Positions 14,207-19,560 of a stretch of DNA of 23,520 nt are shown one piece after another; position 1 is the stretch's first letter, and each line of letters begins with the position of its first letter. This DNA is from a virus (Duplodnaviria > Heunggongvirae > Uroviricota > Caudoviricetes): positions 1 to 23,520 of the IMG/VR virus record IMGVR_UViG_3300035698_035307; one strand, written 5' to 3'. The position numbers and the translations under genes are program-made. The notes beneath the pieces are model-generated. The model did not search any database, was not told where the DNA came from, and saw nothing but the letters and a program-made list of their open reading frames with translations.

Positions 14207-14752
14207 TTATTCGTAATATCTATAAAATGAGTTAACAACTTTTCTTTTTGTTTTAGAACCATCATATATTACTGCAACAGATTTTACTTTAGAACCGTTA
14301 GCTATAAAAAAGCTTTCAATTTTCCTTGCAGTACCACCTGAGAAGTAAGAATCATCTACAAATACAAATGATTTCTTTTTGACATCAAAATCTTCAGGCT
14401 TATAAGATTCAACACCTTTACCGAGTGTTAGCATCTTTCCATTAAATGTAACGAATCCTTTGCATTTAAAAGCCTTCTTCTTATAAAGCTTCATTAATGT
14501 ATCACCAAATCCTCCAGATGACGCAATATATTCATTTTCAAATGGTTTTAAAAGTGCTATAATCATTTTCTTATTTAATACATTTTTGATTTGGTCATCA
14601 AGTGCATCAAAAAATGGTTTACCACCTTTATGTTTTACTAACAGTTTATCTATAAGTTCTTCTAAGTTCTTGTAAATAGAATCGGGCGGATTAAGGCCGC
14701 CCGGTTTTTCTGTTATAAATTCTTCGAATGTTTTTAATTGTATCTTTTCCAC
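14207..14752 (-). CDS. Type I phosphoribosyltransferase-fold protein
   Basis: FVFVDDSYFSGGT PRPP-binding loop; GTG start overlapping the upstream TAG; KTFEEFITE leader. Confidence 0.8.
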   Translation of the reverse strand: MEKIQLKTFEEFITEKPGGLNPPDSIYKNLEELIDKLLVKHKGGKPFFDALDDQIKNVLNKKMIIALLKPFENEYIASSGGFGDTLMKLYKKKAFKCKGFVTFNGKMLTLGKGVESYKPEDFDVKKKSFVFVDDSYFSGGTARKIESFFIANGSKVKSVAVIYDGSKTKRKVVNSFYRYYE

Positions 14753-15861
14753 TAAATTAAGCTTTTTTCAAATTTAAAATATATCTTTGTGTAATATATA
14801 TCAGCTTTTTCTTTTTGGCCAACAAATACGCTTGCATATCTTAATCTGATTGCTATTTTAGGTGCCATAGTCCCTTCAGCTATTGTCGATAATGATTGAG
14901 CTCCCATATATGGAAGGTACATTCCAGGTTCATTATTCTTTGGCATTCTTGAGACTGTAATCGAATTATCATCCCATCTTTTCATTGGGTCAACGAAGAT
15001 TGTGATTCCATTAAAAGTACCTGCTATATAAGGTTCTCCACCTGTAACCATTGATACTTTAGCTTCAGAAGGTAATACAAACCCTTCTATGTCTTGTAGA
15101 ATTGTACCAATCTGACCATTAACTACAGCTACATTACCTGCGCCTCTTCTTGTTGTTATCGCGAGCATATTACATGCACTTAATATAGCAGTGATGATTC
15201 TACGATGAGCTTCTTGAATTGTCATATCTGATGTAATGACATAAGCTTTTTGGTAAACACCCTTGAAATATTTAGGTAACCATTTTTCTAAGAAAGATAA
15301 ATTTTTGTGAATCCACTTAGTTCTTTTCTCTTTCTTTAAATCTTTATCAGTCCATGACTTACGATAAGATATTTCACCATAGTTGTCTATTTTAGCTAAG
15401 ACATTTTTCCAAATGGCCATTTTAGACTCATTAATAAGAACACCTTCAGTTTGCGTAACTGCATCTATACCTATTGATTTTAGATGTTCAATCATTTCTC
15501 TTGTGATAGTTGCAGAAACTTGGTAAGTTTGTTGTTCTATTGCTTGATTAAATAACTGTAAGCCGATTGTCTTCATTGGCACTGATTCACCCCTTGTAAG
15601 AGGTTGTTCAAAACCAGTAACAAAATCTGTTTCTTTTTCATCAGATGTTGGTTCCATTTCAACAAAATCTAAATAAGACATTAAACCTATAGGTAATTCA
15701 ACCTTTTGAACATTTGTAAAATATTTCAGAGCATCATCTTCAAATATCTTCTGATTCATTACAGCGATGAAAGCATCTGTCTTCGCTTGCTGAACAGGGT
15801 CCACTTCCTGCATCTGTAGATGTGGGGGTAAATTGTTTAAATTAAAATTTTCCATATACAT
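14752..15861 (-). CDS. T4 gp23-like major capsid protein paralog (short, divergent)
   Basis: TREMIEHL, TRRGAGNVAVV, IFVDP, PYM, TMAPKIAIRLRYA resemble gp23-family motifs. Confidence 0.8.
   Translation of the reverse strand: MYMENFNLNNLPPHLQMQEVDPVQQAKTDAFIAVMNQKIFEDDALKYFTNVQKVELPIGLMSYLDFVEMEPTSDEKETDFVTGFEQPLTRGESVPMKTIGLQLFNQAIEQQTYQVSATITREMIEHLKSIGIDAVTQTEGVLINESKMAIWKNVLAKIDNYGEISYRKSWTDKDLKKEKRTKWIHKNLSFLEKWLPKYFKGVYQKAYVITSDMTIQEAHRRIITAILSACNMLAITTRRGAGNVAVVNGQIGTILQDIEGFVLPSEAKVSMVTGGEPYIAGTFNGITIFVDPMKRWDDNSITVSRMPKNNEPGMYLPYMGAQSLSTIAEGTMAPKIAIRLRYASVFVGQKEKADIYYTKIYFKFEKSLI
14795..14802 (-). promoter_or_regulatory. GATATATA putative late promoter for PRTase and 2H genes
   Basis: About 43 nt upstream of GTG 14752. 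Confidence 0.5.
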
Positions 15862-15878
15862 TTATTATGTTGTTGATG

Positions 15879-15886
15879 TATATATC
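15879..15886 (-). promoter_or_regulatory. GATATATA putative late promoter for the capsid paralog
   Basis: Intergenic, about 18 nt upstream of ATG 15861, downstream of a terminator. Confidence 0.6.
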
Positions 15887-15942
15887 AGTACTTTTGGAAG
15901 TAATGTCTGCCAGTTGCGTTATTTCAGTACAATCTGAAAAAG

Positions 15943-15973
15943 AAAAAGGGTAAACATCTTATAGTGCTTACCC
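15943..15973 (-). terminator. Intrinsic terminator closing the 19471-15984 operon
   Basis: Minus strand GGGTAAGCA-loop-TGTTTACCC-TTTTT. Confidence 0.75.
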
Positions 15974-15983
15974 CTAATCATTT

Positions 15984-16172
15984 TTACTCCGTATGAGCTT
16001 TTTTGACAATCATTACATCTTCTGGTAATGGATTGTCTTTAAATTTTGCTAGAAAAGCTTTCAAAGTTTTTTTAGCTTTACTAGGCGATAGCTTACCTAC
16101 AGGAACAATGAAAGTTCTTCTAACTTCTCCTTGTCCTGTTTTACACCAATAGTCTTTCTCTAATCTTGTCAT
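15984..16172 (-). CDS. 62-aa protein resembling the T4 gp20-type portal clip region
   Basis: RRTFIVPVGKLSPSKAKKTL....KFK resembles the gp20-family RRxFYIDVGxxPxxKAxxxL pattern; ATGA coupling to the upstream gene. Confidence 0.65.
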   Translation of the reverse strand: MTRLEKDYWCKTGQGEVRRTFIVPVGKLSPSKAKKTLKAFLAKFKDNPLPEDVMIVKKAHTE

Positions 16173-17020
16173 ACTAATTCTCTTTTTAACGGTAATGTCA
16201 TGCAGGCAAACCCTCCTGCCATTTTTCTAATTTCACTCATTTTACAAGTATGAATTTTCATACCTTGATGACATTCTAACATTGCTTTAACTTGTGGGCA
16301 ATCATCAGCCATTATAATTTCCCTTGGACCAATCACTAAAATATTAGTGGCATAGTTCTTACTGACCTCGTCAAACTCAGACAGTGTAATCACATTCTTA
16401 TATCCTAATGTTTCTTGACTCAGTTCTGACCTTATGAGTAACGTATCAGCATCCAGAATCATATGAGCACCTAATATATGTTGAGGTATTCCTTCAGGTA
16501 AAGCTTCGACTGTTTTAAAATTAATATGAGGATATAATTGTTGTAATGTTTCTGCTACCTTTGGAGAAGTTCTATTACCTACAGATAAAATTACTTCATC
16601 TGGTTTAGTTCTTAACATATCAGCTCCTTCAAATGTAATATCTTCACTGAACTCAATTAATTTCCCAGCGTATTGTTCTTTTCTTAAATACTTAATAAGA
16701 TTAAGTTCTTCACCTTTTCTTACATCATATCTTAAATTCCCAAGTATAATTGAATCATCTAAAACTGCAGCTACATCTCTCATATAGATTGCATTAGCGT
16801 GATATAAATAATCAGGAGTATGCATATCAGTATGTACTTCAATACCTAATTTGTTTAAAAGGTCCCATAATGCTGAAACTTCTTCTAATACTACGTCATA
16901 GTTTGGTTGAAATTCATACATCGCCTCATCAGCTGTCATCATTTCTAGTTCACCTCTTCGAGGTATATGTAAGAAAACTGATTGTAGTTTTCCATATTCT
17001 GAGTTATATCCTACTTCCAT
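16169..17020 (-). CDS. Amidinotransferase/arginine deiminase/DDAH (pentein) family enzyme
   Basis: NSEYGKLQSV, NAIYMRD, RKGE, FEGAD, RTS, QHIL, GGFACMTLPL (catalytic Cys). Confidence 0.9.
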   Translation of the reverse strand: MEVGYNSEYGKLQSVFLHIPRRGELEMMTADEAMYEFQPNYDVVLEEVSALWDLLNKLGIEVHTDMHTPDYLYHANAIYMRDVAAVLDDSIILGNLRYDVRKGEELNLIKYLRKEQYAGKLIEFSEDITFEGADMLRTKPDEVILSVGNRTSPKVAETLQQLYPHINFKTVEALPEGIPQHILGAHMILDADTLLIRSELSQETLGYKNVITLSEFDEVSKNYATNILVIGPREIIMADDCPQVKAMLECHQGMKIHTCKMSEIRKMAGGFACMTLPLKRELV

Positions 17021-18956: not shown

Positions 18957-19471
18957 GCTTTCATTCTTTCGTTTACAAAATCGATTACCTGTTGGATATG
19001 TTCGTCTTCGATATGAAAATTGTCTGGATTAATTACAACAGGACATGTTGCAAAACTAGATAATACCTTCATATACTTATCCACATGTGTTTTAAAGTCT
19101 TTACCTTCTTTACTACTCCGCTTGGCTGCTAGTGCTGGCCAATTTTCTTCAGTAGTTGCTATAAATACTGCGCATTTATGAATGTGACTTTTAGATACTC
19201 GTAAAATTTCTTTACGATAACCTTCGTCTTCAGAATATGCAGCATCTGTTAACCCTCTATCCCAGAGAATTACTCTTTTATAATCATTTATCTGGTCTAA
19301 TCTTTCGATATTATTATGCATCCAGAAATTATAATCTTGCCATCTCGATTGCATTCCTATATTAATAGCACCTGCCCCCTTGAATCTTATCCATTCAGGT
19401 TTTTGTTCTAATAATTTATCAATGAGATATGTTTTGCCAACTGTTGACAAACCTTCTAAAAAAACTATCAT
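18953..19471 (-). CDS. P-loop nucleoside monophosphate kinase (TMPK/dNK-like)
   Basis: IVFLEGLSTVGKT Walker A and ILWDRG DR motif. Confidence 0.82.
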   Translation of the reverse strand: MIVFLEGLSTVGKTYLIDKLLEQKPEWIRFKGAGAINIGMQSRWQDYNFWMHNNIERLDQINDYKRVILWDRGLTDAAYSEDEGYRKEILRVSKSHIHKCAVFIATTEENWPALAAKRSSKEGKDFKTHVDKYMKVLSSFATCPVVINPDNFHIEDEHIQQVIDFVNERMKA

Positions 19472-19487: not shown

Positions 19488-19516
19488 ATTATATGGGCTA
19501 TAGCCCTGATGGTTTC
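19488..19516 (-). promoter_or_regulatory. GAAAC-N18-TATAAT promoter with palindrome GGGCTATAGCCC (19495-19506) in the spacer
   Basis: Between a terminator and the kinase ATG. Confidence 0.6.
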
Positions 19517-19525
19517 ATTAATCAT

Positions 19526-19560
19526 AAAAAAAGCCACCTATTCAGTTAAGTGGCTTTTTT
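19526..19560 (-). terminator. Intrinsic terminator, potentially bidirectional
   Basis: A7-GCCAC-loop-GTGGC-T6 downstream of ORF 19572-20315. Confidence 0.85.

What the first reader, a model, noticed from the sequence alone, without database searches (positions are those of the whole stretch)
15984..16172. 62-aa stand-alone portal clip fragment
RRTFIVPVGKLSPSKAKKTL resembles the clip region of T4 gp20-type portals, and KDYW/PEDV echo the portal EDYW motif. Full portals are about 500 aa. This ORF has a coupled start and a downstream terminator in a non-structural operon, so it looks expressed rather than debris. Established: the clip docks terminase, and Avs4 defence proteins sense portal. Inference: a decoy for portal-sensing immunity or a packaging modulator.
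Basis: inference. Interest (0 to 1): 0.75.

Follow-up and report, generated by a model that had tools for sequence, protein, structure and literature searches.

The report
Stand-alone portal clip mini-gene
A large T4-like phage carries an intact 62-codon gene that copies only the exposed tip of its portal protein, where the DNA-packaging motor docks, so it probably makes a soluble mimic of that docking site, though its target is untested.

Summary
ORF 15984-16172 (-) is real. Its start overlaps the stop of the upstream gene (ATGA), and a terminator follows it.

Its similarity to the portal clip is true homology, not chance:
- Portal_T4 is the only Pfam hit for it and for both known relatives.
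- A profile of the three small proteins aligns to portals of this phage clade at 97% probability (E 7e-11).
- The same profile hits nothing but portals in about 1.2 Mb of six-frame translation.

The 151.5-kb record has its own 523-aa portal 32 kb away. The window holds no frameshifted portal remnants, so this is not a broken portal.

The gene belongs to a very rare family of three members, 34-51% identical. All three are intact and sit at different genome positions in related phages. Syntenic relatives lack the gene.

Residues 24-47 match, position for position, T4 gp20 residues 288-311. The T4 portal structure paper reports that this peptide binds terminase gp17 and inhibits packaging.

My best reading is a soluble clip mimic that occupies a clip-binding partner, most likely TerL. 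An immune decoy remains a live rival. No binding was shown here: the co-fold gave no verdict and the monomer model was poor.

Earlier notes of this scan report unrelated stand-alone clip genes in other giant phages. I did not check them.

The parts
15984..16172 (-). 62-aa ORF (P0001), the stand-alone portal-clip mini-gene
   Evidence: ORF list. An identical protein and identical DNA occur on 7 contigs from several samples.
16017..16151 (-). Codons 8-52: the stretch homologous to the portal (end of stem helix alpha5, first clip strand, tip, helix alpha6, start of second strand)
   Evidence: hhalign aligns family columns 8-53 to portal 268-312, probability 97.1%, E 7.4e-11. The clade portal HMM hits all three family members on columns 276-316.
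16032..16103 (-). Codons 24-47: counterpart of T4 gp20 residues 288-311, the gp17-binding, packaging-inhibiting peptide. Codons 27, 28, 31 and 32 correspond to T4 N291, M292, R295 and K296.
   Evidence: Residue mapping (own portal residue n = T4 residue n+5). The T4 data are in PMC4493910, section 8.
16169..16186 (-). Translational coupling: ATGA start/stop overlap with the upstream pentein-fold gene, and the purine-rich AAGAGAA 5 nt before the ATG
   Evidence: Sequence read directly
15946..15975 (-). Intrinsic-terminator-like hairpin and T-run closing the operon, 8 nt after the stop codon
   Evidence: Terminator scan: 11 pairs followed by TTTTCTTTTT. The element is partly conserved in the syntenic locus L101.
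19488..19556 (-). Upstream boundary of the six-gene operon: a terminator hairpin of the preceding unit (about 19556-19526) followed by a perfect TATAAT (19493-19488), 17 nt before the first gene's ATG at 19471
   Evidence: Sequence read directly. The timing class (early, middle or late) is not determined.

Best explanation
The ORF is a selectively maintained accessory mini-gene that descends from an internal piece of a T4-type portal gene. It keeps the end of stem helix alpha5, the first clip beta-strand (FIVPVG), the exposed tip and clip helix alpha6. In the assembled head this piece is the part of the portal that protrudes from the capsid and docks the large terminase, and later the neck protein.

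The protein lacks the wing, crown and second stem helix, so it cannot build a portal ring. I infer that it acts as a soluble mimic of the docking tip and occupies a protein that normally binds the clip. The most likely target is the large terminase TerL. Binding TerL would delay or block motor-portal docking, either of the phage's own motor (a timing function) or of a co-infecting relative's motor (competition).

Shown here: the homology, the intactness, the family, the patchy distribution and the exact correspondence to the T4 peptide. Inferred: that it binds anything, and what it binds.
For: 1. Homology to the clip is solid.
- Portal_T4 is the sole Pfam hit for all three family members, E 0.003-0.0075, on the same profile positions.
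- The clade portal HMM scores P0003 at 30.5 bits, P0007 at 25.0 bits and the window copy at 9.3 bits, all on the same columns.
- The family HMM hits only portals (E 1e-10 to 3e-6) among all six-frame pieces of the held loci.
- hhalign gives probability 97.1%, E 7.4e-11.

2. Residues 24-47 equal T4 gp20 288-311. The T4 portal paper states that this 24-residue peptide binds gp17 and inhibits DNA packaging, and that the N291A-M292A and R295A-K296A mutants abolish packaging (PMC4493910).

3. At those four tip positions the family has K-L-S-K (window), N-K-K-K (P0003) and N-L-K-K (P0007). The last of these is similar to T4's N-M-R-K at all four positions.

4. The gene is maintained.
- Three members at 34-51% identity are all open, 60-67 codons long, and start-coupled to an upstream gene.
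- In 33% GC DNA, a 62-codon frame stays open by chance about 0.8% of the time (my estimate from base composition).
- Synonymous sites are saturated (pS 0.60-0.76) while pN is 0.39-0.44.
- The invariant residues cluster in the strand, tip and helix: F21-G26, S29, P30, K32-K34, L37.

5. It is not a broken portal. The only portal-HMM hit in the whole window is this ORF, and the intact portal lies at record 48084-49655.

6. It behaves as an accessory gene. It occupies different positions in related phages. It is absent from syntenic loci L101, L102 and L103 and from five related records of 109-179 kb.
Against: No partner was identified.

The monomer model is poor (pLDDT 54.7, only helix 30-43 predicted), so an independent fold is not shown.

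The window copy is the member most diverged from portals (9.3 bits). It keeps only two of the four T4 tip-residue types.

This phage's TerL lacks the 8-residue insertion that carries T4 D325/E326, part of the proposed clip-contact patch. The T4 interface therefore cannot be transferred residue for residue.

The portal tip GGKSKTRAKQSL is invariant in 18 clade portals, while the small family's tip differs (G-x-x-S-P-x-K-A-K). It may not compete well for the phage's own TerL.

A phage that inhibits its own packaging needs a rationale that is only conjectured here.

The family is extremely rare: three members among about 15 billion proteins, and no hit to its signature pattern in IMG/VR.
Confidence: 0.4

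Rival explanations
1. Immune decoy or inhibitor. The protein is made before the portal and occupies the portal-binding site of a host sensor (Avs4-type STAND, SpbK-type, or a ring sensor such as RAZR) without supporting the oligomerisation that activates it. This would blind portal-triggered abortive infection.
For: Portals are established triggers of several defences: Avs4 senses portal monomers (PMC12642450), SpbK binds the SPbeta portal YonE (PMC13728456), and RAZR assembles around portal rings (PMC13017515).

The gene is patchy, mobile between genome sites and dispensable in relatives, as anti-defence genes typically are.

An Acb1-like 2H phosphoesterase lies three genes downstream (Pfam Acb1 E 9e-7).

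The tip differs from the phage's own invariant portal tip. That fits a decoy better than a competitor for the phage's own TerL.
Against: The host and its defences are unknown, so nothing could be tested.

I found no paper describing a portal-fragment decoy.

Which portal surface these sensors read was not established here.

A faithful fragment could trigger rather than block a sensor.
Confidence: 0.22
2. Portal-directed cap. The conserved hydrophobic strand FIVPV pairs in trans with the two clip strands of a portal subunit, as neighbouring subunits do in the ring. The protein would then cap or poison portal oligomerisation, or decorate the finished clip. The target would be the phage's own portal (timing) or a rival's portal.
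For: In T4 the clip beta-sheet is built from one strand of one subunit and two strands of the adjacent subunit. [quoted passage not shown]

The strand is the most conserved element of the small family: six invariant residues.

The monomer does not fold confidently alone, as expected for a piece that needs a partner strand.
Against: The basic tip (S-P-x-K-A-K) is equally invariant, and simple strand pairing does not explain that.

Poisoning the phage's own portal ring would be costly.
Confidence: 0.12
3. Functionless relic. The ORF is a leftover of an old duplication or recombination of head genes (a portal piece followed by a capsid-protein paralogue, in the same order and orientation as in the head module). 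It merely remains open and is read through as the tail of an operon.
For: The next gene downstream is a paralogue of the major capsid protein, 38% identical to the phage's own MCP. This mirrors the portal-to-MCP order of the head module at record 44-50 kb.

Close syntenic relatives have lost the ORF. L101 keeps only sequence resembling its last about 20 nt plus the terminator, and L103 has nothing.

The window copy is the most diverged from portals.
Against: Three members at 34-51% identity are all intact in AT-rich DNA, where stop codons are frequent. The conservation is concentrated in the strand, tip and helix.

The other two members sit in unrelated contexts without a capsid paralogue.

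The precise ATGA coupling and the gene's own terminator argue for expression.

There are no other portal remnants nearby.
Confidence: 0.15

Closest known systems
Clip domain of the T4-type portal protein gp20 (residues 279-358; Pfam PF07230 Portal_T4; PDB 3JA7, 6UZC)
   Same: The ORF is homologous over about 45 residues to the end of stem helix alpha5, the first clip strand, the exposed tip and helix alpha6. It keeps the portal-invariant residues F, I, P, V, G, S, A, K and L of that segment.
   Different: It is 62 aa against about 520 aa. It has no wing, crown or second stem helix, and it lacks the third clip strand or has it only doubtfully. It scores below Pfam's gathering cut-off (16.8 against 22.9 bits). 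It is encoded in a non-structural operon 32 kb from the real portal. Its tip motif is family-specific (S-P-x-K-A-K-K), where the clade portals have the invariant K-S-K-T-R-A-K-Q.
Synthetic T4 gp20 peptide 288-311, which binds terminase gp17 and inhibits DNA packaging in vitro (as reported in PMC4493910; the original paper was not read here)
   Same: Residues 24-47 of the ORF are the position-for-position counterpart of that peptide. The family keeps a basic tip and a hydrophobic residue at the M292 position in two of three members.
   Different: This is a natural gene in a distant T4-like phage, not a laboratory peptide. Sequence identity to the T4 peptide is low. No binding or inhibition has been shown. 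The phage's TerL lacks the insertion that carries T4 D325/E326.
T4 gp24 and other paralogues of virion proteins encoded outside the morphogenesis block
   Same: It is a copy of a head gene that has taken on a separate existence. The neighbouring 369-aa gene is such a paralogue of the capsid protein.
   Different: gp24 keeps the whole fold and is a structural component. This ORF keeps one sub-domain and cannot assemble like its parent.

Membership tests
Portal_T4 (PF07230), functional portal protein | Whole-protein score at or above Pfam's gathering cut-off (22.9 bits) | tested here: not met
   16.8 bits for the window ORF, 16.7 for P0003 and 15.5 for P0007
Portal_T4 (PF07230), functional portal protein | Full clip-stem-wing-crown architecture of about 500 aa, able to form the dodecameric ring | tested here: not met
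   The protein is 62 aa. It aligns only to portal 268-312 and profile positions 205-237 of 433. The real portal is a separate 523-aa gene.
Portal_T4 (PF07230), functional portal protein | Common descent with the portal clip segment | tested here: met
   hhalign probability 97.1%, E 7.4e-11. Reciprocal HMM searches agree.
Terminase-binding portal clip peptide (T4 gp20 288-311) | Covers the equivalent residues | tested here: met
   Residues 24-47 = own portal 283-306 = T4 288-311
Terminase-binding portal clip peptide (T4 gp20 288-311) | Keeps the tip residues needed for packaging in T4 (N291, M292, R295, K296) | tested here: inconclusive
   Window K-L-S-K (two of four similar), P0003 N-K-K-K, P0007 N-L-K-K (four of four similar). 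The clade's own portals have G-K-T-R.
Terminase-binding portal clip peptide (T4 gp20 288-311) | Binds TerL and inhibits packaging | not testable with these tools
   This needs a binding or packaging assay. The one co-fold job gave no verdict (see Tried and rejected).
Portal pseudogene or gene debris | Frameshifted or stop-interrupted portal remnants flanking the fragment | tested here: not met
   Portal HMM against all six-frame pieces of the window: only this ORF (E 0.037), all other pieces at E 2 or worse. The upstream neighbour is an intact pentein-fold gene.
Phage anti-defence accessory gene (decoy) | Patchy distribution, variable genome position, and neighbourhood of other counter-defence genes | tested here: met
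   The gene is absent from syntenic relatives and from five related large records. The three members occupy three different contexts. An Acb1-like gene lies nearby. These features are suggestive only and do not define a family.
Phage anti-defence accessory gene (decoy) | Binds or inhibits a portal-sensing defence protein | not testable with these tools
   The host and its sensors are unknown.

The most novel reading that the evidence does not exclude
Large T4-like phages encode natural soluble mimics of the portal's motor-docking tip. The mimics either sabotage the packaging motors of co-infecting rival phages or blind portal-sensing immunity. This gene would be one instance of a wider, undescribed class of mini-genes cut out of virion proteins. 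Earlier notes of this scan report unrelated stand-alone clip genes in other giant phages.
Probability: 0.35. Interest if true: 0.8.

Novelty: new variant of a known kind. Interest (0 to 1): 0.6.

Why it matters
The portal clip is the hub where the packaging motor and then the neck dock, and portals are triggers of several bacterial immune sensors. A phage-encoded free copy of only that docking tip would be a ready-made natural probe of the terminase-portal interface. Until now that interface has been probed with a synthetic T4 peptide.

If the protein targets rivals or host sensors, it would be a new kind of weapon in phage-phage or phage-host conflict.

The gene is small enough for direct tests such as a pull-down, an in vitro packaging assay, or co-expression with portal sensors.

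It also shows that tiny ORFs at operon ends in giant phages can be domesticated pieces of structural genes, which routine annotation misses. No Pfam match passes the cut-off, and the family is almost absent from protein databases.

Tried and rejected
- GenBank phage collection: tblastn of the ORF and megablast of the window found nothing.
- PDB sequence search with the ORF found only noise, E above 1.
- The search for related loci with the ORF or with the family alignments in IMG/VR found no relatives. A degenerate DNA pattern for F-I-V-P-V-G-x-x-S-P-x-K-A-K found 0 matches.
- The metagenome scan returned one locus, L007. It is a false positive: high-GC DNA with no ORF in that frame and a GcrA-like gene on the other strand.
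- The other hits of the 1.8-billion-protein search (P0002, P0004-P0006) have multi-stretch matches to long proteins. Only P0005 was inspected, and it is repetitive. I did not treat them as relatives.
- Complex prediction of TerL (25-row alignment) with the small protein (3-row alignment) gave no verdict: score 0.00, controls not run. This is not evidence either way.
- The AlphaFold2 monomer model from the 3-sequence alignment had pLDDT 54.7 and showed only helix 30-43. It was too poor for a fold search.
- Population variation: all 5 contigs fetched, of the 7 that carry the protein, are 100% identical in DNA, so there is no polymorphism to analyse.
- Polarity of gain or loss: pairwise identities of the flanking genes give an unresolved three-way split between the window, L101 and L103. 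Insertion and deletion cannot be told apart.
- Circular permutation (third clip strand moved to the N-terminus): suggested by the KDYW 11-mer, but the colinear alignment found by hhalign is simpler and P0007 lacks the motif. Left open.
- 'Truncated capsid decoy' for the neighbouring gene: rejected as stated, because the model is a complete HK97 fold.

Full report
**What is there.**
The window is the first 23.5 kb of a 151.5-kb IMG/VR virus record with 33% GC. ORF 15984-16172 (-) encodes 62 aa. Its ATG overlaps the TGA of the upstream pentein/ADI-fold gene (16169-17020) as ATGA. A purine-rich AAGAGAA precedes the ATG. A hairpin with a T-run at 15975-15946 follows the stop by 8 nt.

The ORF is the last of six same-strand genes. 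They start after a terminator and a perfect TATAAT near 19490. The genes are NMP-kinase-like, sulfotransferase, an 81-aa unknown, NDT-like, pentein-fold, then this ORF. The identical gene, with identical DNA, was assembled in several independent samples.

**Is the portal resemblance real?**
Yes.
- Portal_T4 is the only Pfam hit: E 0.0029, 16.8 bits, below the 22.9-bit cut-off, with residues 17-49 on profile positions 205-237.
- A portal PHROG is the only PHROG hit.
- A six-frame search of the whole record puts the phage's own portal as the best non-self match.
- blastp aligns residues 9-46 with portal 269-305.

An exhaustive HMMER search of 1.8 billion representative proteins found one true small relative, P0003 (67 aa, 51% identical). 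A profile search then found P0007 (60 aa). Each of these also has Portal_T4 as its only Pfam hit, on the same profile positions.

I built a profile from 47 portals of this clade, fetched. It scores P0003 at 30.5 bits, P0007 at 25.0 bits and the window copy at 9.3 bits, all on columns 276-316. In the reverse direction, the three-member profile hits every portal (E 1e-10 to 3e-6) and nothing else real among the six-frame pieces of about 1.2 Mb of loci. hhalign of the family against 18 portals gives probability 97.1%, E 7.4e-11, over 45 columns.

**Not a broken portal.**
The record has an intact 523-aa portal at 48084-49655 (-), next to the major capsid gene at 44441-46135. I ran the portal profile against every six-frame piece of the window. 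Only this ORF is hit (E 0.037); everything else is noise. Both neighbours are intact, unrelated genes.

**A small, old, mobile family.**
The three members are 34-51% identical. The invariant residues are F21-I-V-P-V-G26, S29, P30, K32-A-K34 and L37. All three are open and start-coupled to an upstream gene. Synonymous sites are saturated (pS 0.60-0.76), while pN is 0.39-0.44. In DNA this AT-rich, a 62-codon frame stays open by chance less than 1% of the time (my estimate from composition).

The three genomic contexts differ:
- P0003 lies among other tiny ORFs on short contigs.
- P0007 lies at the junction of two convergent blocks of large proteins. Their homologues are co-directional at 91-104 kb of this record, which has no small gene at that site.

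Three loci are syntenic with the window: L101 and L102 (an NCBI assembly contig and a Logan contig) and L103. They share the sulfotransferase, NDT-like, pentein-fold, capsid-paralogue and Acb1-like order, but they lack the ORF.
- L101 keeps only DNA resembling the ORF's last about 20 nt, plus the terminator and a promoter-proximal motif.
- In L103 the pentein gene's stop is 12 nt from the next start.

Five related records of 109-179 kb contain only their portals. A signature DNA pattern finds nothing in IMG/VR. The gene is therefore accessory, rare, and gained or lost readily.

**What part of the portal it is.**
Aligning the phage's portal to T4 gp20 gives own residue n = T4 residue n+5 in this region. 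The T4 clip is residues 279-358: three strands and helix alpha6. It is exposed outside the capsid and is the attachment site for gp17 and then gp13 (PMC4493910; PMC9958956).

The ORF covers T4 274-311. That is the end of stem helix alpha5, the first clip strand, the tip and helix alpha6. The paper places N291, M292, R295 and K296 at the tip, facing gp17. Double alanine mutants of these residues abolish packaging. [quoted passage not shown]

Residues 24-47 of the ORF are exactly that segment. At the four tip positions the family has K-L-S-K, N-K-K-K and N-L-K-K. The clade's own portals have an invariant G-K-T-R within an invariant 12-residue tip.

**Mechanism.**
The protein cannot make a ring. 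It keeps the docking tip and the strand that, in the ring, pairs with a neighbouring subunit. The best-supported reading is therefore a soluble clip mimic that occupies a clip-binding partner. TerL is the partner with direct experimental precedent.

Three rival readings remain:
- It could be a decoy or inhibitor of a portal-sensing immune protein. Avs4, SpbK and RAZR are documented portal sensors.
- It could cap portal subunits through strand pairing.
- It could be a functionless relic.

The patchy distribution, the Acb1-like neighbour and the tip's divergence from the phage's own portal keep the decoy reading alive. The intactness across deep divergence argues against a relic.

Nothing here shows binding. 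The TerL co-fold returned no verdict. The monomer model was poor. The phage's TerL lacks the short insertion that carries two of the T4 contact residues.

**Comparison and novelty.**
The ORF is not a member of the portal family in any functional sense. It scores below the cut-off and has one sub-domain out of four. It is a derivative of that family. I found no paper describing a natural stand-alone clip protein or a portal-fragment decoy.

Earlier notes of this scan describe stand-alone clip mini-genes in other giant phages. They share no short words with this one. I could not check them. If they hold up, the phenomenon is recurrent.

**Neighbour.**
The 369-aa gene downstream is a paralogue of the capsid protein: 38% identical to the phage's own MCP over its C-terminal 290 residues. 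It is conserved at this locus in L101, L102 and L103. Its model (pLDDT 74.7, pTM 0.73) is a compact but complete HK97 fold. The top structural hits are T4 gp23 and gp24, and it also matches HK97 and encapsulin chains along their full length. It looks like a gp24-type vertex protein rather than a truncated decoy. A terminator separates it from the mini-gene, and it persists where the mini-gene is absent. I therefore treat the adjacency as unexplained rather than functional.

Noticed in passing
window 14752-15861 (-): A second Gp23-family protein of 369 aa, 38% identical to the phage's own MCP. It is the only other PF07068 match in the 151.5-kb record. It is conserved at the same locus in L101, L102 and L103 (342-360 aa). 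The AlphaFold2 model is a complete, compact HK97 fold without the T4 insertion domain, and the top Foldseek hits are T4 gp23 and gp24. It is a candidate gp24-like vertex protein encoded 30 kb from the head module.
   Followed up: partly
window 15870-15915 (-) and L101 9941-9988: A conserved non-coding motif (AAC-x-GGCAGACATT-x-C-x-TC-x-AAAA ... ATATATA) lies upstream of the capsid-paralogue gene. It is shared with a relative whose flanking proteins are only 49-67% identical. The local alignment score is 30 against a shuffle mean of 19 (sd 2.4). It may be a promoter or regulatory element.
   Followed up: partly
L101 9803-10000 (syntenic locus, NCBI assembly contig): The intergenic region lacks the clip ORF. 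It keeps a stretch matching the ORF's last about 20 nt including the stop (16 of 19 identical), followed by a terminator. This suggests either a deletion of the ORF body in that lineage or an insertion upstream of a pre-existing tail in this one.
   Followed up: partly
L006 9460-10600 compared with record G000 91-104 kb: The third family member, P0007, sits at the junction of two convergent blocks of very large proteins (1214, 705 and 1829 aa). Their homologues are co-directional in this record, so the mini-gene marks a rearrangement junction.
   Followed up: partly
record G000 31611-33449 (-), TerL: The large terminase lacks the 8-residue insertion that in T4 gp17 carries D325 and E326, two residues proposed to contact the portal clip tip. 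The DD motif equivalent to T4 D330-D331 is kept.
   Followed up: no
I did not test that.
   Followed up: no
Pfam gives no hit, and the only PHROG hit is a family of unknown function (E 1.6e-4).
   Followed up: partly
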